NCBI GenBank assembly: GCA_036172245.1
Contig: JAYWIR010000003.1
Span: 7,378,001-7,418,691 of the forward strand
Direction: 5' to 3'
From: Raillietiella orientalis
Lineage: Eukaryota
Length of the DNA stretch: 40,691 nucleotides
Part shown: positions 20,806 through 40,691 of the stretch, one piece after another
How positions within the stretch are numbered: position 1 is the first letter of the stretch
Layout: each line of letters starts with the position of its first letter
Translations under genes and position numbers: made by a program
Notes under the pieces: model-generated
Seen by the model: only the letters and a program-made list of their open reading frames with translations
The model's database searches: none
What the model was told of the DNA's origin: nothing

Positions 20806-21193
20806 AAAAATGCACGATCGCACTGGAGCGTCTTACGGACGCCGAAGTGCCGAGCAAACAGGTCGTTGCCGTGTGCAACAACGCTGACAGCCCCGTCGCT
20901 GTGCAAACAGCAGCCGAGGGCTGCGGCGAGGGGGAGAGCCGCGATGACGCGGACTTTGCGAAAGCCGCAGCCGAGCTCGCCGCCTCCGTTCCTCAACCAC
21001 CCACAAAGGGCGGGAAGAAGGCCGTTCGACGTCCGGCCGAAAGGAGGGGTACCGGGACCTCGGACTCGGACCCGAAGTCCGGACACGCACCATCCGCGTT
21101 TGCACCCCCGAGGAAGACCGGACGGAAAATCCGTAACACGAGGAGGATCGTCTCCTCCGAGGAAGGGGAATCCTCCGAAAACGAGGGTGCGGC

Positions 21194-21799
21194 GTTTTCA
21201 CCCGGTCAAGTTTATTTAGAAAACTTGCAGTGTTTGCGGTACAAGGCCCCACTGCGGCCAATAGTTCTATGGAGTTGTCGGGTGGTCGGTGCACAGACCG
21301 AGTTGTCACTCCACGTCAACGGATGGGGCTGGGGGAAAAACAAAAATAAAAAAAAATATTAAAATTAAAAATACTTCTCAGTTGGAGGGCCGGGAAGGGA
21401 CCACTGTCCGTTGCGTGGAGCTTCCATCCTTTGCAGGATGCCGACGAGGTCCTGGTACAGATTTCCCAGATGGGGCCATCGGGATGCTATTCGCAGAAAG
21501 CGAGCTGCATACTCCAAGGCATCCCTTTCGTTCACATCCTCTGCTTCTTCGGATCCACTCCAAGCTGCCACAATACCGCGCACGCAGCAGAGAGCTGCTA
21601 TTACAGCGGCTGGCTGCAGGGCGTCCCGCACGACAAGGAGCCGAAAAACGTCTCAGGGAAGGCTACCTTCCAGGATCCCTAAGGTGGAACCGAAGCGTTC
21701 CCACAGGGGCCGGAGGGTAGCACAGTTAACTAAAAGGTGCGGGAGGGTTTCCCACTCCCCACACCGGGCACAGTTTGGGTTCACACTTCCCCGTGTCCA
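21194..21799 (-). mobile_element. Family-1 LINE copy B, 3' portion (zinc motif, 3' UTR, terminus)
   Basis: WTRGSVNPNCARCGEWETLPHLLVNC; ends aataaacttgaccgggtgaaaac at 21194-21216. The reading continues from the piece at 24365-25197. Confidence 0.9.
21785..21799 (+). repeat. Target-site duplication of copy A (partner 24363-24377)
   Basis: acttccccgtgtcca vs acttccccgtatcca: 15 nt, one mismatch. The first 2 nt overlap the element terminus. Confidence 0.85.
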
Positions 21800-24364
21800 C
21801 CACGATTAAATCATCACCGCTATTGAAAGGCTCAAGAGGCGTAAGGCGCCAGGGGAGGACGGCCTGCCGGCGGAGTTCTTTCAGTGCTTCGCTGCAGAGC
21901 TGACCCCTCTTGTGCTCCAATTTACACGGCTGATCCGAAACGAAGGCGATGTTCTCGCCTCGTTTCGGTCAGCCAGGGTGAGGCTCCTTCCTAAGGGAGG
22001 AGACCTCAGAAAATTAAGCAACTGGCGTTCGATCACGATTGTGAACACGGACGCCAAGTTGCCGGCTGGACTGTGGGCTGCGGGACTGGGGCAAGTAGCT
22101 GACATGAAGCGAACCTGTTCTTCGCCAGCACATGGTTCGATGTGCAACGCGAGGAAAAAAAGGAAAAAGAACGGAATGTCGACAAACCTGATTTGGGGGC
22201 GCCAGCGCGGCAAGTAAGGGACGACCGGGAAGGGAATGGGGCTCTAGCGATCGCAGTCGATCTGCACAAAGCGTTCGATTGCGTGGACCAGGAACTCCTT
22301 CTGGAGCTCCTGGATCGCATGGGCTTCCCGGACACCTTAACGGTCTACCTGCGCGCCTGCTGGCGCAATGCGATCATCAACTTGTTTTTCAGAGGACAGC
22401 ACGTGTTGGGCGTGCCGGTGAGGCGCGGCATCCGGCAGGGCGACAGCCTGAGTCCCCTACTCTTCAGCACCTATTTCGAACTGGTGCTGAGAGCATACAG
22501 GGTGACATTGGCTGCCCTGCCAAGCTCGTGTCCAGGCCGGTCGGCGTATGCTGACGATCTTTTGCTCCTGCTGCCCATGTCCGCCCCGGCTTCGGCAGTC
22601 GAAGATTTCTTCGACTTGCTGAGCCGTGGGACAGGACTACGGGTGAGCAGGACGAAGTCGTCGCTAGTGGCGGTTGGTGCAACGTGGGCAGGACGACCTG
22701 ATTGGATCCGCCTGGGGATCCCCACGGAGAGGTACTTGAAGTACCTCGGCGTTCCGTTGGGGGACTTCTGTCAGTCAGAAGCCTGGTCAGGTCGTCTCCA
22801 AAAAGTGGAGTCAGCGATCGGCCCGTTCCTGGAAGGCAAGCTTCACTTGCCGGAATGGCCCGCGGTGTGGAACGCGTTCGCGACCCCCCTCCTTCGACCA
22901 CTGCTTTTTGTTTGCCCCGTACCCCGTGAACTGAAAAAAAAAAAAAAGGACCTCCTACGCATCGCCCTGTGGGGCGGCAGAAGGCCTCGTGTGCCTTTAA
23001 AGGATTTGAGCGCTCCACGTCGGGACGGAGGTCTGAGCGTCCTGACGATGGAGAGAATGGAAACAGCTGCGGTGGCGTACTCTAGCCATCGCAGCGAAAA
23101 TGTGGAGCACCCATTGGTGCGTTCCGGCCCGCCTTCTCGCCAGACGTGTGTCCGGGACTGAAGGACTCGCGTCTTTTCTTCTGTGCCCCGGCCGGAAAAT
23201 AAGAAGATGCGGACTTCTCTTGGGACGCATGGCCACCCTGGCAAAGGAGAACGGGTGAATGGCCTGCAGCCCCGCCAACTCCAGCGCATGGCTGGAAGAA
23301 ACACTTGGAACGTGGGCAAAGTTGAAAGACATCAGTGGAGAATCCTGCAACCGGCTGCGCACCGGCATCTACACCCGCTGCATGCTGCGGAACATGATCG
23401 TGTGTCCCGTCAGAAGCACTTGGGCGGAGACGACCCCACTGGCCACGGCGCTGCCCTTCCTAAGAAGGGCGCTTCAAAACAGCCGGAAGCCGAGATAGCA
23501 AGTCTCCTGCAGGATAGCGGGCAAGGAGAAGGATCTAAGCGGGTGGATCATGAGGGAACTGCCAGACGCCGCAACCCCAAGCGTTCACCCGCATGGAATA
23601 CGGAGATGGGGCGAGCTGCTTGGCATCCCGGTGGATGACCTAGAGTGGCCCCCGTTGTTCATAGACTCATCCACAGTCCCCCTCAAGTGGCAGGAAACGG
23701 CGCTGTTGTTGTTGCACTTTGGTCTTCCCTGCAACGCGCGCCGCCACCACTGGACGTTGGGGAACGTGGGACAGAACTGTGCAGTGTGCGGAGAGAAGGA
23801 ATCCCTCCCCCATCTGTTAGTGGACTGCGCTGCCCTCCGGCCCTTGTGGGAACGTTTTGCTACGACCCTCCCTATGCCGGTAGGCAGTACCCCCAGAGAC
23901 GTTGTGAGACTCCTCTTCGTGCGAGACGCCCTGCCACCAGCCTCAACCCTGGCAGCGCTTTGCTACCTCCGAGGGATTGTGGCCGCGTGCAGCGCAGCCA
24001 AAAGAGGAAGCAGGGATAGGGACGCCATCGTACACGCGGGTCGCTACCTGCGAATCGCGATCGGCTGGTCCCATCTGGGAGCTATGACGAGGGACCTCGA
24101 GGGCATCCTGGAAAGGATGGTCTCTTCCTCCAGCGGGTTGTGATCCCTTCCCGGCCCCCCAAATAGTTTCTTTTTGTTATTTCATTTATTTTTCTTTTTT
24201 GTTTTCCCCCCTACCCCTTCCCCCTTCCGCTGCCGAGGAGAGTCAAGCCGGTTTGCGAACCGGCTTCCTGGCAGGTCACAGGAACTATTGGCCGTAGCGG
24301 GGCCTAGTACCGCAGATGTACTGTGTTCTTTTTAATAAACGCCCCGGCGTGACCGGGTGAAAAC
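21800..24364 (+). mobile_element. Family-1 LINE copy A, 5'-truncated, inserted antisense into copy B
   Basis: KAPGEDGLPAEF, DLHKAFDCV, GIRQGDSLSPLLF, YADD (22547-22558), LKYLGV, NCAVCGEKESLPHLLVDC; terminus aataaacgccccggcgtgaccgggtgaaaac; flanked by a target-site duplication. Confidence 0.93.
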
Positions 24365-25197
24365 TTCCCCGTATCCAATGGTGGCGGCGTGCATTGCAGG
24401 GGAGTCCCCAATGCAACAGCATCAGCGCCGAATCCTGCCATTTTAGGGGAAGGATCCTTGTTTGGGTTATCACTGGGGGCCACTTCAGGTCTTCCGTCCT
24501 GATGGCGAGCAGCTCGCCCCAGTTTTTCAATCCTTGCGGAAGGACGCTCTGGGTTGTGGCGTCTGCCAGCTGTCCCATTGTCCAACCGCTCAACAATTTT
24601 TCTCTGCCTGCGATACGGCAAGAGACTTGCCACCTCGGCGTCCGGCTGCTGACGAGGGCCCTACGTAGGAAGGGTAGCCCCGTCGCCAGGCAGGTCGTCT
24701 CTGCCCACGTGCTCCTGGCTGGACACTCCAGGATCTCGCGTAGAATGCAGCGGGCGTATCTGCCGCGTCGCAGGCTATTCCACCTCTCGTGGCTCCTCTG
24801 ATTAACTACCGCCCATGTGCCAACTGTTTCTTCCAGCCATGCGCTGGAGTTGACGGGGCTGCAGATCATCAGCGCATTCTCCTTCGCCAGGGTGGCTATT
24901 CGTACGAGGAGAAGGCCGCATCTTCTTATCTTCTTTCCACGACATAAAAGAAGAGATGCAACTCCTTCGGTTTTGGATGCAGGTCTGGCGAGGAGGCGGG
25001 CAGGAACACACCAGGGGGTGCTCCACAACTTCGCTGCGATAAGCAAGGATCGCCATCGCAGCTGAATTTCCATGCGCTCTAACGTCAGGAGGCCTAGACC
25101 ACCATCACGACGCGGAGCGCACAAGTCCATCGAAGGGACTAAAAGTCCGTCAGAGGCAATCTAGGCCTCCTCTTGCCCCAAAGGGCGATGCGGAGTC
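24365..25197 (-). mobile_element. Family-1 LINE copy B, upstream portion (post-RT region)
   Basis: LRIALWGKRRPR, DLCAPRRDGGLGLLTLERME ... LLHWGLPCNARRHHWIRGS; resumes at 21799. Confidence 0.9.
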
Positions 25198-27561
25198 CGA
25201 TCACCTTGGTGAATGCGGACGTCAAGTTGTTCTCCAGGCTCTGGGTCGCGCGCCTAGGCAGGATCGCTGGATCCGTGGTAAGTCCGGAGCAGTCTTACGC
25301 TGTTCCCGGGCGGTCCATGGAGGCGAACCTGTTCTTCGCGCGCACGTGGCTCGAGCTGCAACGTTGCGTGGCGCACGACAGCCAGGTAACCTCATCTGCG
25401 GCTGCCGAGGCTAGGCGTCGCTGCATTCGGCCTGAGGAAGCGCCGGGTGCCTTGGCGGTCGCGGTTGATCTCCGCAAGGCGTTTGACTGCGTGAATCAGG
25501 ATATCCTCCTGGAGCTTCTGGAACGCCTCGGTCTCCCGGTGCACCTCGTGGCGTATTTGCGCGCTTGCTGGCGCCACGCGCTCATTTCCATCTCTTTTAG
25601 CGGCTGCCACGTGCACGGCGTGCCGGTGCGGTGGGGCATCAGACAGGGCGACAGCTTAAGCCCGTTGCTCTTCAGCATCTTCTTTGAGTTGGTGCTGAGG
25701 GCGTACAGGCTAACGCTGGCCAGCCTGCCGAGCTCCTATTCAGGAACGCCGTCCGTGGCGGCCTATGCTGACGAACTGCTTCTCCTTTCACCCATGACCA
25801 CCCCGGCGTCCAGTCTCGAGGATTTCTTCGAGCTGATTCGCCGAGGAGCGGGCATGAGCGTAAACCGGAACAAGAGCGTGGTCGTTCCTATTGGTGCGGC
25901 GTGGGAGGGACAGTCCGACTGGATCCGCCTGGGGATCCCGACCGCTTCGTCCATGCAATATCTGGGCGTTCCGCTGGGGAACATCAGCCCAGTGGAAGTG
26001 TGGTCGGACTGCCTTCGGAAGGCTACGAATGCTCTGAGCCCGTTCCAGCATTGCAGGTTCCTCCTGTCGGAGCGGGCCGCGATATGGAACACCTTCGTTG
26101 GCCCCCTCTTGCGCCCCCTGCTTTTTGTTTGCCCGCCCCCCTACTAGGCCAAGCTCCAGGCGCACAGCCTGTTGAGGAACGCTCTGTGGGGACCTGCGAG
26201 GTGCAGGATACGCCTCAAAGACTTGGCGGCTCCGCGTCGGGATGCTGGCTTAGGCATCCTGACGCTGGAGAGAATCGAGCTGCAGGTGCAGCTTCGGATG
26301 TTGGCCCTGTGCGCCAACCTTTGGTCCACTCCGTGGTGTGCTCCCGCGCGCCTGCTTTTGCGGCGCTGCACCGGCAGCGATGGACTTCTGTCGCTGCGGC
26401 CGCATAAGGAGCGCGCCACGAGAAGCTTCGGTTTCCCGTTGAAACCCCTCTACCAGCTCCTGGAAGCCCAGGAATGGATCTCCTGCCGCCCAACGAACTT
26501 TGAGGCCTGGCGGCAGGAACCGTTGCATGGCTGGGCAAAGCACCATGATGTTTCCCTCCTGGAACTCCGTTGCACTCACCTCTCCCCGTACTGCACGGTG
26601 GATGAGGTGTGCAACAGCCAGGAGAAGTGGCCTCGCCTGGCCGTCACGCTCCTCGCTGACGCGCTGTCAGCCCTGAGGGCAAGAGATGACAGCTGCGAAC
26701 CGGCGAGATGGGAGGTCGCCGGCACCATCGCAGGAACAACACGACCCATTGGCGGCTGGAGGACTTGCGAGCTGGCAGACGCCGCCACCCCTCGCCACAT
26801 CCCGAAGGGACTCCTTCGATGGAGTGAACACTTGAGTGTGCCCCCCGAAGAACTTGTGGTCCCTCCCTCCTGTTTGAACACTTCTGTGTTCCCCCTTTCG
26901 TGGAAGCAGGACGTCATCATGCTGGTGCATTGGGGTTTTCACTCCAACCAGCGGACGAACCGTGTTTCCGGGGGAGTTGTCTCCCCAAACTGTAAGCGGT
27001 GCAGGGAAGTGGAAACGCTCCCGCACTTGCTCCTGGACTGCGGTGTCCTCCAAGGACTGTGGCAGTCTGGCCACAGCTCTCCAGCACCAGGAGGACACCG
27101 CAAGAGACTTGATGCGCCGCTTCTTCACGCCAGGCGGCCTGTCTTTAGGTGCTGTCGTTGCAACCGTGTATTGCACCCGGGCCATCGGCAAGGCCCACCG
27201 AGAGTTGGAGAAGCTGGCCATTCTTCGTCAGCCCACCGGAATAGTCAGCGCGAACATGACGTCGGCTGCCGAGTGGACCCATCTTCCAGAGGGCGTTAGG
27301 AGCGAGATCTGCGGCATCCATATCCGGTTCTAAAAGAATGGCACGGCCGCACCAAAGACCCCTGTCCTCTACCCTCCCCATATCTTTATTTTTATTTTTT
27401 ATATGTATATTTGTGCTCCCCTCCCTCTCGTTCCTGACTTTCGGTATACCGACTTGCGTGTCGGGGATCCCACCCCCTTCGTCTTCTCTGTATCCTTTGT
27501 CCGGGAACTCTGTTCCCGGATAGTTTTTCAATAAACGCCCCGGCGCACCCGGGTGATAAAC
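25196..27561 (+). mobile_element. Family-1 LINE copy C, 5'-truncated RT to 3' terminus, with stop and frameshift
   Basis: PITLVNADVKL, DLRKAFDCV, GIRQGDSLSPLLF, YADE (mutated YADD), MQYLGV, NCKRCREVETLPHLLLDC; terminus aataaacgccccggcgcacccgggtgataaac. Confidence 0.93.
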
Positions 27562-28563
27562 AGCAGGTGACGTTCTTGCGGTGCAGCGCAATCTTCAGAG
27601 GTCTGGTTTTAAAGGCCAGCAGTTTAAACTCAGGCCCAACCGCGATAAGTGTTGCGTCTTGTCGTTGAATAAACAGAACTTCGCCCTTTACTGGGCCCTT
27701 TCTTGGCTGGGAGCACACCCGGAAAACCATCGACACTCGACGTAGGCGCTGTATCGATAGTCGAGGTGGACGCCTCCACGGTCGTGTAAGAAGCCGGTGC
27801 CGTTATCTCCCTTGCAGGTCCGGCTCTCCGGAGGAGGGTTCCTCCAGATGGTTGCCGAAGGACACTTTCTTCACTTCTCCGTACTGAGAGATGTGGTCCC
27901 ACACATCTTCCTGCGTGGTGCTGCAGTGCACACCACGCAGGTATACAGGGGTAGAGGAGAACTCTCCCAGTCCGCGCAGTCTCCTGCCGCTGATGACGAG
28001 ACGGTTTTCCATGAGCTCTTCCTGCAATTGCTCGTCCGCGGTGTACACGGTGAAGCCTGTAGAGGACGGAATGATTGCGTAGATGAGCTTAAATTTCACG
28101 TTGTCTTTGTGTAACGCCACGTAGATGTCCCTCACGTTCGCGATCCTCAGCATTCCCGTTTTAAAGGTAATTGGCTCGTCATGGTCAGCAATTTCCCAGA
28201 CGGGTTTCCTCACGCGGTGGACTTCAAAGACGCCGGGCTTCGACGGCCCTGCCATTGTTCCTCCCGTCTTGTTCGGCATAAGGATGCCGCTTCGAGGCCG
28301 CCGCGGCCACGTACGTCAGCGGCTTCTGCGGCATCGTTGCCAACGCTGGCGCAGTTACCTCTCCGCATGTGCCGAACTAGCTCACCTCCATTGGCGTGGG
28401 AGACGCCATGCAAATGTTCTGTCCTTGTGAGGGGTACGGGTTCGCTCCTTCAGGTCGGGCTCCGTCAAGGGTTCCAGGAGGGGAGGGAAGCGTGCTCAGG
28501 GAAGGGGGAGAAAAGCACTGTTCACTTGGCACTTGTTCGAAGCTTTTTTTGCACTTGGTTTTG
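27562..28563 (-). mobile_element. Family-2 LINE 5' remnant (leader and degenerate ORF1) directly downstream of a U1 snRNA fragment
   Basis: FKTGMLRIANVRDIYVAL..IYAIIPSSTGFTVY..VYLRGV..VWDHISQYGEV is homologous to the ORF1s at 34700-35250 and 38400-38900 (FRTGLIKVSNIREVCLSL..IQAIIPNNSGFAVF). The N-terminal PMEVS*FG resembles MEVTFG/MEVTYG in those copies. The 3' boundary is uncertain. Confidence 0.85.
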
Positions 28564-28652
28564 CAGGAGCTTGCGCGAACGCAGGCTTCCAACCTAAAAA
28601 TTATGCTCCCGAGTAATCTGCATTTGGGGTTATCGCAGAGATGCAATGGATA
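28564..28652 (-). ncRNA. U1: U1 snRNA 3' fragment (SL2 loop, SL3, Sm site, SL4); 5' end absent
   Basis: Minus strand reads tatccattgca-tctctgcgataaccccaaatgcagattactcgggagcat-aatttttag-gttggaagcctgcgttcgcgcaagctcctg. This matches recalled metazoan U1 landmarks: UCCAUUGCA, UGCGA..CCCCAAAUG, Sm site, GCG-UUCG-CGC. About 20 nt of SL2 are deleted. Confidence 0.85.
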
Positions 28653-30200
28653 GTGGAGTCTCAATGGATGGTGCGATGAACCGAAGAGAAGACCCGGAGC
28701 AAGGCAGCCTTGCTGCTGGCTCCTTCCCCCCCCTTTTTACAGAGCTACTCCGTTCGCTGCGTATCTTCAAGTGACGCAAATTCTCCGACTTTGGAAAAGT
28801 GGCAGCAACGAGCAGGAGGGTTCGTCGGGATTCACTCCGTTCGAAAGTCCAAAGAATCCCGTAAACTCCTGAAATGGATGGCGACGATCCGCTTGCCCGG
28901 CGAATTCCGATTTCGTTCATTTCGACTCTTTTCGCCCTCCCTCCGCGGTTTGGTAACCCTGCGTCGGCCTAGGGATCTCGGCATGCTCGGGCATCCACTT
29001 CCCTCTGCTGAGCGCTTCCTAATTGCGTGCACCTTGTAGTGATTCGTGTCAAACATCTCCACTTCCGACCCTCTGGACCGCTTCGGTTTGGAATGGGCAG
29101 TGTGGATGAGGGCGCCGCGAAGCAATCTGTTTTGTACGGCTCATCGCGTTCCGTGTACTGTTTTCACTTATACCTCGAATGCCCAACGTTTCGCTAAGTT
29201 CTCATCACTTCACCGGGCTAGCTTACCAGCAAGCATGAAAAGGTAAATATTAAAGAAAAAAGAAACAAACGAGAAAAGGGGGGTGGGGGAATGCAGTGCA
29301 CGTTGAGGATTATGTCCTTTTCTCCTCTCAGAGTACATTCTGAAGTATCGGTTTAGGGGACAATCCAACTCTTGTCGAATTTCGCTGTTTCGGTAGTTTG
29401 AAAGAAGAAGGATGGATTTCTTTTTTTGGCCATGAAAAGTATCCGTAATAGTATGTAAGGAAATTCCATGCATGAAAAATTTACATTGCCTCGTGTATTC
29501 CTTGTATTTTCAACTGTTCATGGAAAGATGGTAGTATGAACGATATCCCGCCCCCCATCAGCACCGAGAATTCATGAATTCTCGGTAGTGATGGGGAGCC
29601 GAGCAGAGTTGGCCAAAATGTTTAGTACCAAAAAACAAAAGCAAAAACATGGCTTTCTGTGTTCCATGCTTTTGAATGTATTTAAAACAAAGGAATGGAA
29701 CATTCCAATCGTCATAGTGGATCTGTGAATTGAGTTAGATGCAATCTCTGCATGCACCCTTGGGATTTTCAAGTCTTTCTGTTCAATTGCCAGAAAATTC
29801 CATTCACATGAGGGTTGTGGGAATCACATTCGAGTGTGCTTCCCCATGATGTGGCATTCTTCAATCAACTGACACAAATTGACAGTACTGTATGATCTGT
29901 TGTCAAACTTGCCCTTTTGTTGTGAATGTGAATTTACAGCACTGTGCATTTGTGTAGATTGCTGCAAGACTTTTCAAAGCACACAATCCCTTCAGAGTGT
30001 CTTTCCTGAATTGTTTTTCAGAAGCTTGCCTACAAAAAAAAGGGGGGGGGGGGAATGTCCACAGTAGGTTTTGGAAAGACTAGTGGCTTCACATCGTCCC
30101 AGGTTTCATTGATTGGAATGCTTAGTATCTTCCTAAAACTTGTGTCATTGGCCCTTTTTTTTTTTGTTTTTTCAAATGGTTCTGTTCCTGTACAGGGAGA

Positions 30201-31739: not shown

Positions 31740-32520
31740 TGTCTATTAGCAACCAGGCATAACTCAGTCAGTGCGCGAACTGCATTAATTGCTAATTCAG
31801 GCAGGCTCTCTACATTCGAGGATGCTGTTTCATAATGAGTGATCATGTCATCCAGAATTCTTCGATGTCTAGGGTTATTAGTTCATCCTTGGTATTCCCC
31901 CATGGTCGCATAACTGGATCCTCCGTACAGTTTGAGCATACCTTTTGCTACGTACGCTACATTCTTACACAGTGTGGATTTTACATTACCTAAATCCTTG
32001 GAAAACCCATAATATGGGTTGTAGTTGCCCACCGTCAATGTCTGGTTAATGCAACTGCACTCGTCGACAAACATTGTCGCTATGGCCGTCCAGTTAAAAT
32101 TGCAAAATCCAACATAACCTTACGAATTACCAGTAAGACTGTAAGCCCAGAACCCACTGTAGGAGACAAAGTGACCCCGATCCTTAACGATAGATTGCGC
32201 ATATCATGGCACCACGTGGTAAAGATAATCTCTGCGTTCGTTTCATCAGTGAGATTTCCAAGGTGTGCAAACAGCTTTCGAACATAATTTGGAGATAGAG
32301 AAGGGTTAGCGAATTCCTCGTCAATATGTTCTGGTTGATCTTGTCGGTCTTGTTGACAGTAATTTGCCCACGTTTAGCGAAAGAAACGTGAATATACAAT
32401 TGTCTGAATATACAATATGTTGCCAACTTGAGTTAACATCAGGGTTTTACATCTGTGGATGGCCCACAGTATGATATTGTTCATGATGGCTGGCGTTAGT
32501 GCGTCATTTGCCAGCATGTT
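31740..32520 (-). pseudogene. Endogenous viral element: chuvirus (Jingchuvirales)-like nucleoprotein, C-terminal portion, degenerate
   Basis: Hand translation across one frameshift and two stops: LSLRIGVTLSPTVGSGLTVLLVIRKVMLDF/FNWTAIATMF..VGNYNPYYGFSKDLGNVKSTLCKNVAYVAKGML..YQG*. This resembles the recalled chuvirus N block GSGLT..F.W..NPYYGF..DLG..KST.YK.LAYVAKELL..Y.GW. Confidence 0.78.
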
Positions 32521-32960
32521 GGGGTTGCCGGTTTGCGAAGCAGATGATGGGGGGGGGGGGGGGGGGTTGAAAATACTTCAAGCTTCCCCGATATTTTGAG
32601 TCAAATATAATACCATTTTTCAGACTCTCAATGAAGCCGTACTGTACGTGCTCCATGTTATCTTTTGTGAAGTCTACGACTATAATGTGTTCTCCATTAT
32701 AAAGATGGGCTGCATCGGCTTTGCGGCAGGAATGCATGTAAATAGCTCCACGTTTGAGGAATAAAAATTTCGCCATTGTAGTCTTGCCGGTATTGCCACG
32801 TGTCGTAGCACCAGTGGATTTTTCTTGTACTTGGTTTGCAGCTTGATGTCGACTATACTCATCTGCCATTGTTTGAGTTGTAGGTTGTCGATATGGTTTG
32901 GAATGGCTCTGTTTCTTGAAAGGCGGAAGCATTCCTTGATAAAATTAATATTGGAAGGAT
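32521..32960 (-). pseudogene. rep: Endogenous CRESS-DNA virus Rep fragment (SF3 helicase domain)
   Basis: Across frameshifts: LKQWQ, IHWCYD, Walker A GNTGKT, Walker B IIVVDF, FIESLKNGIIFDSKY, motif C IICFAN. This layout is typical of nanovirus/alphasatellite-like CRESS Reps. No HUH endonuclease part is seen. Confidence 0.88.
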
Positions 32961-32967
32961 ATTATCT

Positions 32968-35686
32968 TCGGGGTGTGAGCTTTTGGCCGTGGATGTCTAA
33001 GCCCCGTAGTCGCCCGCTCTTCTCCATGAAAGACAGCGCCTCCATGTAAATAACGAACAGCATCGGACTTAGCGAGTCGCCCTGCCGAACTCCTCATTCC
33101 ATCCGAATGGCTGCCGTTTCTACCCCGTTGATCTTGATCCGGAAGCGTTGATTTCCGGAGAATGATTTCTACGAAGTTGCTGAAGTATTCCGGAAGTCCC
33201 AGCTTTTCCAGAATCTTCAGCAGCATCCCGTGATCTATGGTGTCGAAGACCTTCTCCATGTCGGTGAACGCCAGCACCAGGTTCCCACCGATGTGTCGGC
33301 TGAGTCTCACTGTGGCTTGGGCCCACTTGACATTGTCCGACTTGTCGCGTCCAGGCAGCGCACAAGTCTGGACTGGAGAGATTAGCTTCGGCATGATTTT
33401 GCCTAAGCGGTTGGCCCAAGTCTTTGCCAACCACTTGGCGTCGGAGTTGAGGATTGAGATCGGCCTCGCAAACTTCCATCTGTTCGCCATCTGGCGCGCC
33501 ATCCTGCTCCGCGGCCTTCTAGGAAAATTTCTGCTCGAACGACTCTTCGGATCTTAATGGTCTTCAGAATCGCCTCCAGGACATCCTGATGACAGGGATG
33601 GTTCTCGAACCAGGTGGGCATGCTGATGAGCGCCGCCCTGGTGCCTTGTCTTCGTCGAGGATTTTCCGTCCTTAGGGAAAACCGCAACAACGGGTGATCG
33701 GACAACGCAGTGAGCGTGTCCGGAAAGCCTTGTATGCGGTTCTCTAGTTCGGAATCGATGTGTTCGCTGATCGGGCGACCCAGCTTGTGGGTCACCTGCA
33801 GGCACACGATGTCTTGATGTGCGATGGTTCGCACAATCCTTCTTTTGACCTGGTCGATCAGACCATTTACATTCCAGGAGGCGATGTTAATCCTGTTGGC
33901 GGTCGATGGGGTTGAGGCCATAAAGGGGAAGACCTACTCTTGGCCTTCCTGAGCTTCTTCTGTCTGGGAGAGCGTGGTGCTCTTCCAGACGAAGAAGAGG
34001 GAGCGGTTTTCTCGCTGCCAGCGTCGCTCTCCGTCCCGGTGAGGTCGGTGAGGTCGGTGAGGTCGGCCTCCTCGGTGTAGTGTTCAGTTCGTGCGACGAG
34101 CTTCCGGGGTAACACTCTATCTCCACGTTTGCGCAGAAGTTTGCCTTCACGTCGAGAAGCTTATCCTCCAGCATCTCTCGCTCGGCAGTCTCCACCACCT
34201 GGTTGATGGTTTCTTGCGCATTGCAGATCTTCTGCAGGAGTTCCTGCTGAGGTCCGCTCTGCGCCTCCATGAGTTCTTCCGCCAGTTTCTCCACCTCCTC
34301 GGTGTTCTTCAGGGCAACCTGTGGCACCGGGGTGGGTTCTGACACTTTCACTTCTCCTTCCTCCGCTACCTCAATCCTCTCGCCTTCCTCCGCGCCTACT
34401 GCTTGGGCAAGTGCAGTTTCCTGCTCCTTAACGAGCATCTTCCTCTTCCCCTTCTCCCCTATCTCCACAAAACCGTCCGCCGAAAGCGGGGCGGCCTCCT
34501 TGGCCTTTGTCTGTTTACCTGATTTTGAGGTTTCGCAACCTCCGTCAAAACCTTCTCCCTCCCGGTGGATTGACCCCGCATAGTCCGGTAGTTTGCCAAC
34601 TCCGGACAGCACCACCTCGCGTGCCCTGGCTGCTTGCAGAACGAGCACACCTCGAGCATGACAGCCGCGCACCTGGAGTCCTTACTTCCCACAGCGAAAG
34701 CACTTAGACCTGGGACACGCGCTCATTCTGTGACTGCAATTTTTGCAACCGGTGCAGAACACCGGCTGCTGCCTATAATATACGGAGACCTGCGTGTAAC
34801 CGTCTATATGTACGATCCTCGTGATCTGTGCTCCCTCGCTCAACTTCAACTTGGCGTTCACCTCGTCCGAAAAGATCTTCCCTGTTATGTTCTGGAATTG
34901 CAAGTCCAGAACCTCCCCGAACTTGGACAAATAGTCCCAAACCGTCATTTGCGTGGTGGTCATCCCCATGCCTCTCAACAGAACGCTTGTGTACGGCATT
35001 TCGCCGATCCTACCAACCATTCGCCCCTGTATATTAATGCTCGTCTCGATGAGGGCCTCACGTAGTGGTTCACTATCCGAGTAGATGATGAACCCCGGCG
35101 TAGTCGGGATGATCGCCTTAATGCTATCGAAGTCTACATTTGTCTTGTAGAGAGACAGTTAGACCTCTCTGACGTTATGTAACCGGATTAAGCCATTCTT
35201 CAAGGTGACGGACTTTATGTTCGGACCAACCCGAACGATCGGCTCGTCCACCCTGGCCAGCTTCCCCCTTTCCGGTTTCCCGAAACTTCTTTGCGGCTGG
35301 GCACTAGCCTGGCCCGCTGCCACCGCCGCATACGAAAAAGGCTTTGCAGCCGAACAAGATCACATTTCATCCTGCACCCTATGCGCAGCGTGGACGCCCG
35401 CAGGTCCCGCCTGGGACGTCGCCGCTGCAGGCACGATCCTCGACGTTGCCGCCGTCGCGGGCGCGAACCTAGGCATCGCCGCTGCCTCGCCATCGCCAAA
35501 CGTTACCTCCATTTCCATATGGGACGTCGGCCTCTTCGTCACACCTGTTGCCTGCATCCCCGCGGCTGCCACTGCCGCTAAGGAAGTTGGCAGGGCTTCC
35601 ACCGTGGATTCCTCGCCGCTGATGCTGCAGGTGTAGTGGATGATCCTCGCCTGCTCCATGAGTCCACACTCAATTTTTTACTAATT
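32968..35686 (-). mobile_element. Family-2 L1/Tx1-like unit I: ORF1 (ATG 35659; RRM-like region, CCHC knuckles) and internally deleted ORF2 (APE endonuclease start at 33921; RT cut before YADD)
   Basis: FCTGCKNCSH, KCFRCGK, CSFCKQPGH; IASWNVNGL..DIVCLQVTH, LSDH; RPISILNSDAKWLAK, DMEKVFDTIDH, VRQGDSLSPMLF. Confidence 0.92.
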
Positions 35687-35806
35687 TACCCTCTCGGGGC
35701 ACTCAAAAATTGCCGCGGCAGTGAGGTTAGTCACTGCCTTGGCGGGGTATTGAGTATAGTTTTCAACTAGCAATAATCGCGCCTCCCTTTCGTTCAGCGG
35801 CGGCAG
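35687..35806 (-). ncRNA. U4: U4 snRNA fragment (about nt 20 to 3' end), junction copy 1
   Basis: gccgctga..gaggcgcgattattgctagttgaaaactatactcaataccccgcc matches the recalled U4 5' stem-loop/K-turn and U4/U6 stem I region. It is followed by a central hairpin ggcagtga/tcactgcc, Sm site aatttttg and 3' hairpin tgccc-cgaga-gggta. Confidence 0.92.
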
Positions 35807-38800
35807 TTTTCCTCAAGTACCACAAGGGGTGGGGCAATTTATTGCACATGCAGGAAATCGAAACTTTGATTACGCACTTTTAAGTTCATTCCACTATCAC
35901 TTGGGGAGTCACTCAGGGAACTCTACGTTGGATTTGCACTTGGGAAGACTAAGTATGGGTTTGGGCTCGGGCAATACTTACTATCCTGCGAAGGATGTGT
36001 TTGTACGTCCATGCTTACACTTTCCCGCAGTTCCTGATTCCAATTTCCTTCTGGACGAGTCCTCGGAGGATGTCCATGGGATGTGCTGCCGTTCCGGTTT
36101 TCGCCATCTTCCACCATCGGATTAGGATGGCTTTAATGAACAAGGCAATGGTTATCCTAGCCATCGGATTATACAAGGGTGCACTGGCGTTCCCCTGAAA
36201 CATCAGCGCTAGTACTTCCGTGGTGGTGACGTCGGGTAGTCCTAAGAACCTTTTCAGGGTATCCCAGTACCGGGGGTATGTGGGACAGGTTAGGATGTGC
36301 AGTCTTGTTTTCCCATCTCCACACGCCTTGCATTTCCCGTATTCCACGTTTCCCGTTATGTGGTAGAACCTGGAACCACTCTGGATTCCGCCCTGATAAC
36401 ACATCAGGACTTAGTCCTGAACGTTCGGCGGTAGGTCACTCCTCCATAATGTTGTGCCAATCGCTAACAGATTGATCCTCAGACTTCCGTGGCGATCGGC
36501 AGCTTCATGGAGAGCACTGATGTCCTGTTTGTCTTCTTGAATGATTCTGCGGATGTTTTTCCTATCTAACCTGGATAACGCGAAGTTGTCGTTTTTCCAC
36601 ACCTCGCGGGTCCTGTGGGTGAATTTTTTCAGCATCATCTCGATATACCGAAGTATACGAGAATGGTGAAGGTTTCCTCCTCTTCTCCATTCCTGGATTT
36701 TCTTCAGGGTAACTCTGGGTTGCTGGTGGATCCAGCTCATTGCGTCAGCAGGCACGCGAAGCCTTCTAGGGATCACCAGGATGGATTCCTCCTGCCAGAG
36801 TTCCCTGCTTCGTGGCACAATCTTCAGCTGGTGCTTCTGTACCACCGGCTGTTTCCTCTTCCAGGTGGGATCGATAGTGTTCCAATCTCCTGCTTCGCCT
36901 AGCAGCGCAGTTATCAGGCCTCTCGAGCTGTTCAGCAACAACGCGTAGGCCCTGTGCGCTACATACGTCCAGTAATTCCAGTGAGTGGCTATGTCCAGGA
37001 TGTGTCGCGTATCCATTATTCCTATGGAGAGTGCAGGAGACTTTATCCCGGAACCGCCTTTTTCCCTGGGACGACACAGGGGTTTCAAACCAACTCCAGT
37101 AATTCCAGTGAGTGGCCCCACAGTGTTTTTCGCTGCAGATTCTCTACTTCTCTAGTGGTTTCCGTGTTCATCCTAGCGAAGGCTGCCACGATGAGTACCT
37201 TTGAAAGGAGTACTCCGTTCCATAGGTTGGCTCTCGAGATATTTCAAGAAACCTTGTTAAGTCGAGCGACAGAGATGTGTCCCTTAAAGTGTTTCCTGTA
37301 CAGCTTCTGTAAGGCTTAGACGATATCTTCAAACGAGTGTCTCTTCTGGCCGTTGTACTGATTGCACATGTCTGTTGCCCAATTCCTCTTCTCCAGTACT
37401 CCGACTTCCCTTTTACATTATGGAAAACGTACGGTCTCTCGTACTCCTCGAAGCACTTGGAGAGTGAGCGATCTTGCATGTTCCGCTCCCGGAACGCACC
37501 TTGCCTCAATCGTCTATCGCCAAACTGCATGTTCGCAAACAGTAATATCCTGTGTTTCCAGACGATGAAGAAGGAGCGGGTTTTTCGCTTACAGGGTCAC
37601 TCTCCGTCCCGGTGAGGTAGGTAAATTCGGCATCCTCATTAGAGTGTTCTGCTCGCGCGATGACCTTTATGGGTAGCGACTCTATCGCCACCTTCGCACA
37701 GAAGTTCGCCTTTACTTCGAGAAGCTGTTCCTCCAGCTTTTCTCGCTCGGCTACCCCCACCATCTGGTTCACAGTCTCCTGAGCATCGCAGATCTTCTGC
37801 AGGATTTGCTCCTGCTGGGGCCCACTTTGCACCTGCACGAGTTATTCTGATAGTTTTGCCAACTCTTCGGTGGATTGTCGGGCAGCCTACGATAACGGAG
37901 TGGCTTCTTTTTCCACTTTCGCGTCTTCCTGAACTCACTCCATTTTCTCGCCTTCCGCCGCTACTTCTAGACTTGGAGAGGCTTCCTGCACCTTGACGAG
38001 CATCCTCCTCTTCCCCTTCTTTCCGACTTCTATGAAGCAGTCCGCCGATACCGCGACAACTTCCTTAGTCTTTCTCGGCCTTCCTGCTGTCTTTTGAGGC
38101 TGTTCCGCCTCCTTTAAATTCCTCTCTCTCACGGGAGAGAGTCCACGAATCCTTCTGCAATTAGAAATTCCGGACAGCTCCATTTAGCATGCCCGTGCTT
38201 CTTGCAGAAGGAACAAACCTCCGGCTACGCGCAGTTTCGGACTTCGTGTCCAATCTTGCCGCAGCAGTAGCATGTTGATGTGGAGCAAGCGCAGGCCTTG
38301 GGGCCAAACTGCTTGCATCCGCTGCAAAATACCGGTTGCTGCCGGTAACGCACACTCACGCAGTGGGATCGTTCGTCTATGACGGCTATCCCGGGGATCA
38401 GCGCGGCATCATTAAGTTTTATTCTGGCGATCATGTCGCCAGAAAAGATTTTTTCAGAGAAGTTCTCGAACTCGAGGTCAAGAATTTCTCCAAACTGTTC
38501 AATGTATTTCTAAACCGTTAGTTATGGTGTGTAGATGGAAATACCGCGCATATAGACGGTCGCGTACGGCATCTCGCCGACACCACAGACCATCCTGCCT
38601 TGGATGTTGATCCCTTTCTCGATCAACCTTTCCCTGATGTTTTCACAGTCTGTGAAGACTGCAAACCCGGAATTGTTTGGAATGATCGCCTGAATGCGAC
38701 CAAAGTCCAAATCCGTCTTATCTAGGGACAGACATACTTCCCTGATGTTGCTGACCTTGATCAGCCCTGTTCGAAACATTCTGAACTTGACCTCCGCGCC

Positions 38801-39369
38801 AAGCTGGACAACATGCCGGTCCACCCTTTCTACCGTGCCCCTTAGGGGCTTCCCAAATTTTCGTGGCGGCTGGACACTAACCTGTCCCGCGGTCACCGAC
38901 GCGTAAAAAAATGGCTGTGTTCACGCAGCCGAGCAAGATGCCGTCGCATCTTGCGCTGCCTTCACCGCGTGGACGTCCGCGGGCCCCGCCTGGTACGCCG
39001 CCGCGGACGCAACACTCGACGTTGCCGTAGCCGCCACCGCGGTCGCGATCCTCGGCGTCGCCGCCACGGGCACGACCTCCACCGTGGCCGCTGCGGGCCT
39101 GACCCTTGGCATCGCCTCCACCGGCGCAGCAAAGCCCGCCACGGGCGCGATCCTCGGCGTCGCCGCCGCCGCCACCTCGCCGTTGCCATACGTTACCTCC
39201 ATGGTTTCCATGGGAAACGACGGCCTCACGTCTCCTGGTGCCTGCATCCTGGCAGCTGGTCTTGATGCTCGGGACGACTGCAGGTCTTCCACCGCGGACT
39301 CCTCGGCTCTCCTGGTGCTGTAGATGGTCCTCGGTTGCACTATTTCCACACTGGTCTTCCTGAAACACT
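35807..39369 (-). mobile_element. Family-2 unit II: degenerate ORF1 joined near 37555 to the post-RT part of ORF2 (endonuclease and RT core deleted), plus 3' UTR
   Basis: ORF1 knuckles FCSGCKQFG, CYCCGKIGH, CSFCKKHGH; LCRPREKGGSG; C-terminal CKACGDGKTRLHILTC; ends aataaattgccccaccccttgtggtacttgaggaaaac. Confidence 0.9.
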
Positions 39370-39489
39370 TGCCCTCTGGGGGCACTCAAACATTGCCGCG
39401 GCAGTGAGGTTAGTCACTGCCTTGGCGGAGTATTGGTTATAGTTTTCAACTAGCAATAATCGCGCCTCCCTTAAGTTCAGCGGCGGCGA
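39370..39489 (-). ncRNA. U4: U4 snRNA fragment (about nt 20 to 3' end), junction copy 2
   Basis: tcgccgccgctgaacttaagggaggcgcgattattgctagttgaaaactataaccaatactccgcc...ggcaatgtttgagtgcccccagagggca. Same structure as copy 1, with 10 differences in 120 nt by hand count, one of them in the Sm site. Confidence 0.92.
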
Positions 39490-40691
39490 TTTTCCCCAAG
39501 TCCCACAAGGGGTGGGGTAAATATATTTCACAGTTTTTGAAACACATTCATACTACAGTCTCATTCATACCACTGACACTTGATTACCGCTTTGAAGTAT
39601 CTGGGGTTTCTCAAGTTCTGCATTCCGGATGGGTTGCCGGATGTTTGGTCCCGGGCGTCGTCTTGAATCCTCTACAGGATGAACCGGTACGTCCGGGCAT
39701 GCATTCTTCCACAATTCCTGATGCCTATCTGCTTCTTGATGAGTCCTTGAAGGATCTCCATCGGAGGTGCGCCTCTTCTGCCTTATCTCATCTTAGACCA
39801 GCGCACAAGTATTGCGGTGATGAATAGGGCAATGGTCGTCCTAACCATTGGATTGTAACGGAGAACATTACCATCTCCCTGAAACATTCCGAAGATGATC
39901 TCCATTGTGGAGCTGGTGGTGAGTCCAATGATCCTATTCAGGATCAGCCAGACGTGTATCAATTTGGGACACTTAAAGACGTCAAGTCTGGTGTCGGTGT
40001 CGTCACATGCTACGCAGTCTTCATCTTCCCGTCTTCCGGTAAAGTACTGGAGTCTGGACCCGCTTTGGATTTCTCCATGATAAAACATCAGGAGGTTGTC
40101 CTGGGTCTTCGGCGGAAGGTCACTCCTCCAGAGCGTGGCGCCAATCGCTAGCAGGTTGATGCGATCGCTCCCGCAGCGTTCGGCAGCTTCTTGGAGGGCA
40201 CTGATGTCTTGGTCGTCTTCTCGAATGAGTCTTCTGAGGTTAATTTTGGTTACCCTAGACCACGCGAGATTGTTGTGGTTGATCCACACCTCACGGGTCA
40301 TATGGGTGTACCTTCCTAACATCATCTCTATATACGGAAGTATACGAGTATGATGCAGGTAACCTCCTCTTATCCACTCCTACATTCGTTCCACGATAAC
40401 TCCGGGCCGCCGGTAGATCCAGCTTCTCCTGTCCAAAGCGACCAGAAGCATCCAGGGGATCACCAGGATCGATTCCTCCTGCCAGAGTTCCCTGCTTCCC
40501 GGCACGATCTTGATTTTGTGCTTCCGCACCAGCCGTTGCTTCCTCCTCCAGGTTGGGTCCATGGACATCCAATCTCCTGCTCGGCCTAGCAGCGCAGTCA
40601 TAAGGCCTATCGTGTTGTTTCACAACAACGCGTAGGCCCTGTGTGCTGCGTACGGCCAGTCATCCCAGCGGGTGGCTATGTCCAGGATGTG
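39490..40691 (-). mobile_element. Family-2 unit III: ORF2 C-terminal part and 3' UTR; runs off the window
   Basis: Homologous to 36015-37010 (RINLLAIGATLWRSDLPP, CVACDDTDTRLDVFKCP); ends tttaccccaccccttgtgggacttggggaaaa directly against U4. Confidence 0.92.

What the first reader, a model, noticed from the sequence alone, without database searches (positions are those of the whole stretch)
35640..39540. Head-to-tail L1/Tx1-like array with U4 snRNA (about nt 20 to end) at both unit junctions: candidate U4-targeting, target-restoring retrotransposon
Seen: at both junctions (35687-35806 and 39370-39489, minus strand) the element 3' terminus (hairpin then GAAAA) abuts U4 at the same position, the start of the 5' stem-loop. 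The U4 sequence runs to its natural 3' hairpin, and the next unit's ORF1 begins about 27 nt later. The two U4 pieces differ at only 10 of 120 nt and keep the K-turn GA/GA, stem I region and both hairpins, while the neighbouring ORF1s are visibly far more diverged. Known: Keno (Tx1 group) and Utopia insert specifically into U2 snRNA genes; I do not recall a U4-specific element. Inference: the element carries U4 nt ~20-end as its 5' head and inserts at nt ~20 of U4. Insertion would rebuild a complete U4 behind the host promoter, let the element be expressed by read-through, and recreate a target, which would yield exactly this tandem array. This parallels phage integration that restores tRNA genes. 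An alternative is that U4 is co-mobilised 3' flank or an old template-switch chimera.
Basis: partly seen in the sequence, partly recalled or inferred. Interest (0 to 1): 0.92.

Follow-up and report, generated by a model that had tools for sequence, protein, structure and literature searches.

The report
LINE array joined by U4 snRNA pieces
Dead copies of a LINE-type jumping gene lie head to tail, each joint filled by the same 3' four-fifths of the U4 spliceosomal RNA gene, which suggests a jumping gene that inserts into U4 genes and leaves a fresh U4 copy behind, though one window cannot prove it.

Summary
Rfam U4 matches both joints above threshold. In both, the LINE's conserved last 28 nt abut U4 at about nt 20. 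The two U4 pieces are 109/119 identical, against 61% for the flanks.

Codon-position bias and few stop codons show that the units diverged as coding lineages. They are separate insertions, not a decayed DNA duplication.

One new fact: a sub-threshold U1 piece (28564-28711, minus strand) precedes a fourth, distant ORF1 at the same spacing. The snRNA 3' end lies 168, 175 and 172 nt before a shared ORF1 motif, in 3 of 3 such 5' ends.

My reading, at about 0.45: an L1-clade LINE specific for U4 nt ~20, whose full-length copies gain an RNA-derived U4 20-end on their 5' side and so recreate the target.

The rivals stay open: template-switch heads without U4 targeting, an R9-like ~120-bp target duplication, and DNA-level processes.

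No genome, sequencing reads or related loci could be reached. No U4-targeting element appeared in my literature searches.

A similar pattern is published for U2-specific Utopia in Phytophthora, where truncated U2 follows each element and intact U2 lies upstream. I therefore rate this a new variant of a known kind.

The parts
39518..40691 (-). Unit A: the 3' part of a LINE (ORF2 C-terminal region and 3' UTR), cut by the end of the window.
   Evidence: It is 71% identical by blastn to unit B (39136-40691 against 35452-37004). tblastn gives 57-67% aa identity to the ORF2 C-terminal pieces of B. There is a weak zf-RVT hit, E 0.013.
39490..39517 (-). The terminal 28 nt of unit A: a hairpin followed by GAAAA.
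   Evidence: Exact pattern match. It folds as a local hairpin, z -3.6. It is 26/28 identical to the copy at 35807-35834.
39371..39489 (-). U4 snRNA piece a, running from about nt 20 to the natural 3' end.
   Evidence: Rfam RF00015, 76.1 bits. Homology to ordinary U4 genes starts at ATCG.
35835..39370 (-). Unit B. It holds a 5' UTR, ORF1 (ATG 39246, running to about 37560, with stops) and only the C-terminal part of ORF2 (about 36015-37151). The EN and RT regions are deleted. A 3' UTR follows.
   Evidence: Sequence and translations. No RT or EN family was found in its ORFs. It is 67% identical to unit C over ORF1.
35807..35834 (-). The terminal 28 nt of unit B.
   Evidence: Pattern match. The hairpin is weakened by 2 changes.
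35688..35806 (-). U4 snRNA piece b, running from about nt 20 to the 3' end.
   Evidence: Rfam RF00015, 67.3 bits. It is 109/119 identical to piece a.
32945..35687 (-). Unit C. It holds a 5' UTR, ORF1 (ATG 35557, with RRM-like regions and CCHC knuckles), the ORF2 start at 33921, an EN remnant and an RT fragment. Unrelated DNA then cuts it off.
   Evidence: Translation. RVT_1 E 1.3e-10 and Exo_endo_phos E 0.091. The best solved relative of the RT fragment is human L1 ORF2p at E 2e-9, against R2 at 2e-4.
28564..28711 (-). A U1 snRNA-like piece, diverged, with a non-canonical first ~6 nt.
   Evidence: Rfam RF00003, 35.9 bits, below the gathering score of 69.5. E is 1.1e-5 over 35.6 kb and 2.4e-7 over 801 nt.
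27650..28563 (-). Unit D: the 5' UTR and N-terminal ORF1 of a more distant relative of units B and C, truncated.
   Evidence: tblastn gives 35-44% aa identity to ORF1 of B and C at 27851-28240. The shared ATGGAGGT motif lies 172 nt after the U1 piece, against 168 and 175 nt after U4 in B and C. The 3' limit of about 27650 is my estimate from the translation.

Best explanation
These are dead copies of an L1-clade (APE-type, possibly Tx1-like) LINE family that inserts in the sense orientation at about nt 19/20 of U4 snRNA genes. The 3' junction is precise: the conserved terminal hairpin plus GAAAA, then U4 nt ~20.

Each full-length copy also ends up with a U4 20-to-3'-end piece joined about 18 nt or less before its own 5' end. 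After an insertion the locus therefore reads U4(1-19) + U4(20-end) + element + U4(20-end). The upstream U4 is whole again and can be hit again, and repeated hits by diverged lineages built the A-U4-B-U4-C array.

I infer that the 5' U4 piece is RNA-derived. Either the transcript carries it (read-through from the rebuilt U4), or the reverse transcriptase jumps from the element's 5' end onto U4 snRNA. Homology with U4 1-19 of the target would then guide the 5' joining.

Shown: both junctions, the independence of the units, the conservation pattern, and the fixed snRNA-to-ORF1 spacing. Inferred: target specificity in the rest of the genome, the RNA origin of the 5' piece, and the rebuilt complete U4.
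For: 1. Two of 2 element 3' ends in the window abut U4 at the same base, in the same orientation, with the same 28-nt terminus.
2. Three of 3 ORF1-type 5' ends found by tblastn (B, C, D) have an snRNA 3' end 168, 175 and 172 nt before the shared ATGGAGGT motif. This holds for both U4 and U1.
3. The conserved block stops at the natural U4 3' end. The next 18 columns are only 7/17 identical, against 109/119 for U4 (p 5e-6). That fits a piece copied from RNA that ends there.
4. The units are separate insertions of diverged lineages.
   - Differences are enriched at third codon positions: 76/65/117 (p 1.6e-4) and 146/129/223 (p 2.7e-7).
   - There are only 6 stops in 986 ORF1 codons, against 20.4 expected if all divergence were neutral decay (P 2e-4). 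There are 4 in 606 ORF2 codons against 10.8 expected (P 0.017).
   - The stops imply about 5% decay per copy. That matches the 8% difference between the U4 pieces, so the pieces were near-identical when inserted.
5. Published parallels:
   - Tx1-group LINEs target small RNA genes near their 5' ends. Mutsu inserts about 20 nt into 5S genes (PMC5340908, passages). Keno inserts in U2 (PMC4640811).
   - In Phytophthora every U2-specific Utopia is followed by U2 39-end, and intact U2, not U2 1-38, lies upstream, in arrays of different families (PMC4640811, sections 6 and 7).
   - Retroposons moved by Tx1 repeatedly gained U1/U2 sequence at their 5' ends (PMC4494074, sections 17 and 18).
Against: - There are only two U4 junctions, both in one array. 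No other copy, no host U4 gene and neither end of the array could be seen.
- No U4 nt 1-19 is present in the window. A 14-nt motif allowing up to 3 mismatches gave 11 matches against 15.85 expected, and none lies beside the U4 pieces.
- If the head were inherited through RNA in lineages about 20% apart, its near-identity would need strong selection on all ~120 nt.
- The U1 piece before unit D is not a restored gene. Its first ~6 nt are not U1-like, and no U1 promoter could be recognised.
- Both U4 pieces share 9 differences from 7 ordinary animal U4 genes in 23 invariant columns of the 5' stem-loop. They share 0 in the next 39 invariant columns (p 4e-5). I cannot say whether the host's own U4 looks like this.
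Confidence: 0.45

Rival explanations
1. Template-switch heads without U4 targeting. The reverse transcriptase of this LINE group often jumps from the 5' end of its own RNA onto the 3' end of an abundant snRNA (U4, U1). Copying of U4 stops at about nt 20, where the region that pairs with U6 begins. The array arose because later copies landed in the A-rich tail of an earlier copy.
For: - The U1-D junction looks like such a chimera: a 5'-truncated U1 with non-LINE DNA upstream.
- The snRNA pieces end at their natural 3' ends.
- Repeated 5' addition of U1/U2 by Tx1-type machinery is published (PMC4494074).
- In an unrelated metagenome organism, a U4 fragment also starts at ATCG, about nt 20, inside foreign DNA. 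This is L007, L011, L031 and L041, one locus seen in 4 contigs.
Against: - Both U4 heads begin at the same base, directly after exactly GAAAA of a sister element. A tail split at random should give variable A runs.
- Two successive hits into sister tails need a strong preference of their own.
- As I recall, classic chimeras join a full-length snRNA to a LINE truncated at variable points. Here the LINE part is full length at a fixed spacing, 168-175 nt.
Confidence: 0.2
2. Long target-site duplication. The element nicks the bottom strand at U4 nt ~20 and the top strand just past the U4 3' end. Each insertion therefore duplicates about 120 bp (U4 20-end) as DNA. The element RNA carries no U4.
For: - It predicts that the two U4 pieces flanking unit B were identical at insertion. 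Their 8% difference fits the ~5% decay per copy inferred from stop codons.
- It also explains why both pieces share the same unusual 5' stem-loop.
- 126-bp duplications are known for the rDNA-specific R9 LINE of rotifers. I saw this in a passage of PMC9977147 and as a title in the reference list of PMC3636483.
Against: - The second nick would have to fall within about 2 nt of the snRNA 3' end for U4 and, independently, for U1 in unit D (168, 175 and 172 nt spacing). That is an unexplained coincidence.
- The 18 nt after U4 are not duplicated, at 7/17 identity.
- R9 belongs to a different LINE clade with a different endonuclease (recalled).
Confidence: 0.12
3. DNA-level origin. Either classical insertions into a tandem host U4 array lost the spacer and U4 1-19, or an old [element+U4] unit was duplicated and gene conversion kept the 150-nt block alike.
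For: - Kojima and Jurka considered deletion of the 5' gene fragment, recombination and gene conversion for the same pattern in Utopia/U2 arrays (PMC4640811, section 6).
- Conversion could spread the shared odd 5' stem-loop.
Against: - The third-codon-position excess and the deficit of stops reject pure neutral decay of a duplicate.
- The same deletion end point would be needed twice.
- The 18 nt after U4 differ strongly although they touch the conserved block.
- This origin does not explain the U1 piece at the same spacing before unit D.
Confidence: 0.13

Closest known systems
Keno (Tx1 group of the L1 clade), specific for U2 snRNA genes
   Same: It is an APE-type LINE with two ORFs, inserted at one fixed position in a Pol II snRNA gene (PMC4640811). 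The precise 3' junction and sense orientation are as I recall.
   Different: The target here is U4, not U2. No U4 1-19 lies upstream of the units. Membership of the Tx1 group could not be tested, because no named reference sequences were available.
Utopia in Phytophthora and Nasonia (restriction-like endonuclease LINE, specific for U2)
   Same: Every intact 3' end is followed by a 5'-truncated snRNA gene. Upstream lies an intact gene rather than the missing 5' fragment. Different families share one array, and tandem insertions occur (PMC4640811, sections 6 and 7).
   Different: It belongs to a different LINE clade with a different endonuclease, and its target is U2 nt 38/39. The spacing between the upstream gene and the element is not reported as fixed. 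I could not open the paper's S2 figure, which is a PDF.
Mutsu (Tx1 group, specific for 5S rRNA genes)
   Same: It inserts about 20 nt from the 5' end of a small RNA gene, and the gene remnant lies directly downstream of the element (PMC5340908).
   Different: The target is a Pol III gene in large tandem arrays. Whole 5S units separate the elements.
SINEU and Tx1-Mar in crocodilians; U6-L1 type chimeras
   Same: snRNA sequence is added in the sense orientation to the 5' end of a retroposed unit by LINE machinery (PMC4494074).
   Different: There the units are short non-coding SINEs aimed at a Mariner transposon, and the heads are U1 or U2. Here the units are full-length LINEs, the head is U4 from nt 20, and it is flush with a sister element.
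R9 of bdelloid rotifers (specific for 28S rDNA)
   Same: It is a site-specific LINE that duplicates about 126 bp of target at insertion. That is close to the ~120 nt of U4 seen here on both sides of unit B.
   Different: As I recall, it belongs to the R2 clade. Its target is a long gene, so nothing is rebuilt. A duplication here would have to end exactly at the gene's end.

Membership tests
U4 spliceosomal RNA (Rfam RF00015) | Covariance-model score above the gathering score | tested here: met
   76.1 and 67.3 bits against a gathering score of 46.
U4 spliceosomal RNA (Rfam RF00015) | The 5' ~19 nt, which by my recollection pair with U6 in stem II, are present | tested here: not met
   Positions 1-19 are replaced by the LINE tail, and homology to 7 reference U4 genes starts at ATCG. 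No such motif lies elsewhere in the window. The pieces are therefore fragments, not genes.
U4 spliceosomal RNA (Rfam RF00015) | 5' stem-loop with a kink-turn, an Sm site and a 3' hairpin | tested here: inconclusive
   The tandem G-A pairs are kept, but the short stem beyond them is changed, with non-standard pairs flagged. Both copies share 9 differences in 23 invariant columns. The Sm site is intact in piece b and carries one G in piece a. The hairpins are kept.
L1-clade non-LTR retrotransposon | Reverse transcriptase closest to L1 ORF2p | tested here: met
   RVT_1 E 1.3e-10. The best solved relatives are five human L1 ORF2p sequences at E 2e-9 to 9e-9, against R2 at 2e-4.
L1-clade non-LTR retrotransposon | APE-type endonuclease N-terminal to the RT | tested here: inconclusive
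   Only the first ~35 residues survive. Exo_endo_phos E 0.091. Exonuclease III E 0.071 and APE1 E 0.55.
L1-clade non-LTR retrotransposon | ORF1 with RRM and CCHC knuckles, and a Cys motif after the RT | tested here: inconclusive
   CCHC-like motifs are visible in the translation. RRM_1 E 0.018 in unit D and zf-RVT E 0.013 in unit A. All are below the curated cut-offs.
Tx1 group (Keno, Mutsu and others) | The RT groups with Tx1 in a phylogeny | not testable with these tools
   No named Tx1 or Keno sequences were available. The nearest of 5011 library hits are about 45% identical or less and carry no names.
Target-specific LINE of a small RNA gene | All intact 3' ends abut the same base of the target gene | tested here: inconclusive
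   This holds for 2 of 2 3' ends in the window. The rest of the genome could not be reached.
Target-specific LINE of a small RNA gene | The upstream flank is the 5' part of the same target gene | tested here: not met
   Zero of 2 units have it. U4 20-end plus about 18 nt lies upstream instead.
snRNA-LINE template-switch chimera | Full-length snRNA joined to a LINE truncated at a variable point (feature as I recall it) | tested here: not met
   The snRNA pieces lack their 5' ends: U4 starts at about nt 20 and U1 at about nt 6. The LINE parts are full length at a fixed spacing of 168, 175 and 172 nt.
Long target-site duplication (R9 type) | The same target stretch flanks both sides of one unit | tested here: inconclusive
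   The U4 pieces on either side of unit B are 109/119 identical, but the adjoining 18 columns are only 7/17 identical.

The most novel reading that the evidence does not exclude
A LINE lineage that makes its own safe landing site. It inserts at nt ~20 of U4. Using U4 RNA, either carried at its 5' end or picked up by a template jump, it rebuilds a complete U4 gene upstream of itself. The host then keeps a U4 copy, the element can be transcribed from the U4 promoter, and the site can be hit again. A related lineage would do the same with U1. The same mechanism would explain the unexplained intact U2 genes found upstream of Utopia elements.
Probability: 0.35. Interest if true: 0.8.

Novelty: new variant of a known kind. 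Interest (0 to 1): 0.62.

Why it matters
LINEs that target snRNA genes are few. [quoted passage not shown] A figure legend in PMC4494074 adds a Tx1 family with a U5 target. My searches found no element reported for U4.

How such elements persist in low-copy essential genes is an open question that the Utopia authors raise. An insertion that regenerates the gene it hits would answer it. It would also explain why arrays of mixed families form. If the same pattern holds across this genome, the mechanism becomes directly testable.

Tried and rejected
- **Whole genome:** none is held for this window.
- **Sequencing runs:** none was listed for 35400-39700, and no RNA holder was listed.
- **Earlier scan notes:** nothing relevant turned up by place, words or sequence.
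- **Element terminus in metagenome contigs:** 0 matches.
- **U4 core in viral contigs:** 0 matches.
- **U4 core in metagenome contigs:** 44 loci. They are ordinary U4 genes plus a few fragments, and no LINE lies beside the six odd ones I translated (L007, L011, L031, L041, L030, L035).
- **The window's unusual U4 5' stem-loop:** 0 matches in genome contigs and in viral contigs.
- **Protein word searches, longer proteins only:** no hit for the ORF2 C-terminus or the ORF1 RRM region.
- **Exhaustive HMMER search with the RT fragment:** 5011 hits at E 0.001 or better, but none close. The two top scores are gene models that fuse several RT copies. Ten hits were looked up and none carries a name.
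- **Host taxon:** the cathepsin search and the Atlas gave only distant, mixed animal and plant hits, so the taxon stays unknown.
- **A U4 5' fragment after the U4 pieces:** no Rfam hit in 39150-39620, and no motif match.
- **LINE terminus pairing with the U4 3' end:** rejected. In the A/B copy, 1491 of 2000 shuffled tails pair as well; in the B/C copy, 31 of 2000 do.
- **Ordering the units by age from stop counts:** the counts are too small. A has 3 in 303 codons, B has 1 in 303 and 2 in 493, and C has 4 in 493.
- **SLACS paper:** PMC330328 is not held.


Full report
**What is there**

On the minus strand the last 8 kb of the window holds three related, dead LINE units laid head to tail.
- Unit A (40691-39518) is only a 3' part.
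- Unit B (39370-35835) has ORF1 and the C-terminal end of ORF2, but has lost the endonuclease and reverse transcriptase.
- Unit C (35687-32945) has ORF1, the ORF2 start, an endonuclease remnant and an RT fragment, and is then cut by unrelated DNA.

The RT fragment matches Pfam RVT_1 (E 1.3e-10). Its best solved relatives are human L1 ORF2p (E 2e-9), against R2 at 2e-4. Evidence for an APE-type endonuclease, an RRM/CCHC ORF1 and a C-terminal Cys motif is weak or visual only. I therefore place the family in the L1 clade and leave the Tx1 group untested.

**The observation**

At gathering threshold Rfam finds exactly two hits in the window. Both are U4, and they lie at the two joints (76.1 and 67.3 bits; cut-off 46). 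The model's first ~20 positions are merely laid over the LINE tail.

A scan of metagenome contigs with the U4 core returned 44 loci. Seven ordinary U4 genes from them were aligned with the window's pieces. Real homology starts at ATCG, about nt 20, in both copies.

The 28 nt before that point are the same in both joints: a hairpin then GAAAA. The pattern has 2 matches in the window against 0 expected.

Identity between the two joints:

| Segment | Identical |
|---|---|
| U4 piece | 109/119 |
| Terminal 28 nt | 26/28 |
| Next 18 columns | 7/17 |
| 3' UTR | 85/164 |
| All flanks pooled | 390/637 |

Fisher's test of U4 against the flanks gives p 3.8e-12.

**Not a decayed duplication**

The units are only 67-71% identical, yet their differences pile up at third codon positions. 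The counts by codon position are 76/65/117 in the ORF2 C-terminus (p 1.6e-4) and 146/129/223 in ORF1 (p 2.7e-7).

If all divergence were neutral decay, I would expect about 20 stops in the 986 compared ORF1 codons, and there are 6 (P 2e-4). I would expect about 11 in the 606 ORF2 codons, and there are 4 (P 0.017). These expectations use a rough recalled figure: about 4% of random changes make a stop.

The stops imply about 5% decay per copy. That fits the 8% difference between the U4 pieces. So the units were already about 20% apart when they landed, while their U4 pieces and 28-nt termini were then nearly identical.

**A new fact outside the given coordinates**

A permissive Rfam scan of 1-35600 gives three matches at E 0.05 or better. 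One is a U1 match at 28564-28711 on the minus strand (35.9 bits, below the cut-off of 69.5; E 1.1e-5). The other two are the two strands of a palindrome.

Just downstream of the U1 piece, in the same sense, tblastn finds a fourth ORF1, unit D. It is 35-44% identical to ORF1 of B and C.

The distance from the last snRNA base to the shared ATGGAGGT motif is 168 nt in B, 175 nt in C and 172 nt in D. All three ORF1-type 5' ends in the window therefore carry an snRNA 3' end at a fixed distance.

No LINE remnant lies upstream of the U1 piece (tblastn up to E 10). Its first ~6 nt do not look like U1.

**What this means**

A classical target-specific insertion would leave U4 1-19 upstream of each unit. 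None is present. Something must therefore place U4 20-end on the 5' side of each unit.

Four routes give the same array:
1. The element RNA carries the piece as a head, by read-through from a rebuilt U4.
2. The reverse transcriptase jumps from the element's 5' end onto U4 snRNA, and homology with the target's U4 1-19 guides the 5' joining.
3. About 120 bp of target is duplicated, as with the 126 bp of R9.
4. Copies already bearing an snRNA head land in the tail of an earlier copy, with no U4 targeting.

The block ends at the natural snRNA 3' end for both U4 and U1, and the adjoining 18 nt are unlike. This favours an RNA-derived piece (routes 1 and 2) over a DNA duplication.

The identical nt-20 boundary directly after GAAAA, seen twice, favours real targeting of U4 over route 4. 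The near-identity of the U4 pieces at insertion favours a host-derived piece (routes 2 and 3) over a long-inherited head.

I commit to U4 targeting with an RNA-derived, target-recreating 5' piece at 0.45. The rivals stand at 0.20, 0.12 and 0.13.

**An unexplained detail**

Compare the two window pieces with 7 ordinary animal U4 genes. In the 5' stem-loop, both pieces differ at 9 of the 23 columns that are invariant in those genes. In the next stretch they differ at 0 of 39 invariant columns (p 4e-5).

The changes keep the tandem G-A pairs and partly compensate in the stems. This could be the host's own unusual U4. It could also be a variant kept by the element, or sequence mobilised together with the upstream element's 3' end. 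The host's U4 genes would settle it.

**Comparison with what is known**

Targets of transposable elements among snRNA genes, as listed in print:
- U2 (Keno and Utopia), U1 and U6 (Dada): PMC4640811, passages.
- U5 (a Tx1 family): PMC4494074, figure legend.
- The Dada survey of 2022 adds tRNA and 5S genes but not U4: PMC8869645, passages.

Three full-text searches found no paper on a U4-targeting element. Repbase reports and subscription journals were not searchable.

The closest parallel is Utopia in Phytophthora. There truncated U2 follows every element, intact U2 lies upstream in place of the missing fragment, and several families share an array. The authors left this unexplained. Their S2 figure is a PDF that I could not open.

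Repeated 5' addition of U1/U2 to retroposons mobilised by Tx1 is also published.

**Verdict**

I rate it a new variant of a known kind, with interest 0.62.

Noticed in passing
window 32504-32944 (minus strand): The DNA that cuts off unit C encodes a P-loop stretch with a weak RNA_helicase (PF00910) hit, E 0.0065, below the cut-off. A run of about 16 C follows at about 32545-32560. It may be a fragment of a small DNA or RNA virus-type helicase gene.
   Followed up: no
window 730-5766 and 14654-19674: A 5-kb inverted duplication, 96% identical. Each arm carries a cathepsin L-like gene with an I29 propeptide and a papain domain. The nearest database relatives are distant and mix animals and plants.
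   Followed up: partly
window 20000-27300 (plus strand) and 11749-13587: A second, GC-rich (59%) LINE family. RT ORFs lie at 22103-23161 and 25143-26147, and a zf-RVT region lies at 23499-24143. The pieces are nested and inverted. It has no snRNA piece, and one copy appears to cut off unit D.
   Followed up: partly
L007, L011, L031, L041 (metagenome loci): In an unrelated organism, a U4 fragment that also begins at ATCG (about nt 20) and ends near nt 75 sits inside foreign DNA. No RT-like ORF lies within 2 kb. It may hint that nt 20 is a natural stopping point when U4 is copied.
   Followed up: partly
L008, L019, L025 (metagenome loci): A 3'-truncated U4 fragment with an inverted copy of its own 5' part, flanked by an 11-nt direct repeat. 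It looks like an ordinary snRNA retropseudogene.
   Followed up: no
window 6531-6630 and 29550-29599: Two palindromes of 57 and 50 nt. The first gives sub-threshold MIR2084 hits on both strands, most likely only because it is a hairpin.
   Followed up: no
window 39353-39370, 35670-35687 and 28540-28563 (minus strand): The short stretch right after each snRNA piece is A-rich, with GT..AAAA motifs. It resembles what follows ordinary U4 genes in the metagenome loci and, as I recall, the snRNA 3' box. If real, the pieces would derive from gene DNA or a precursor rather than from mature snRNA.
   Followed up: no
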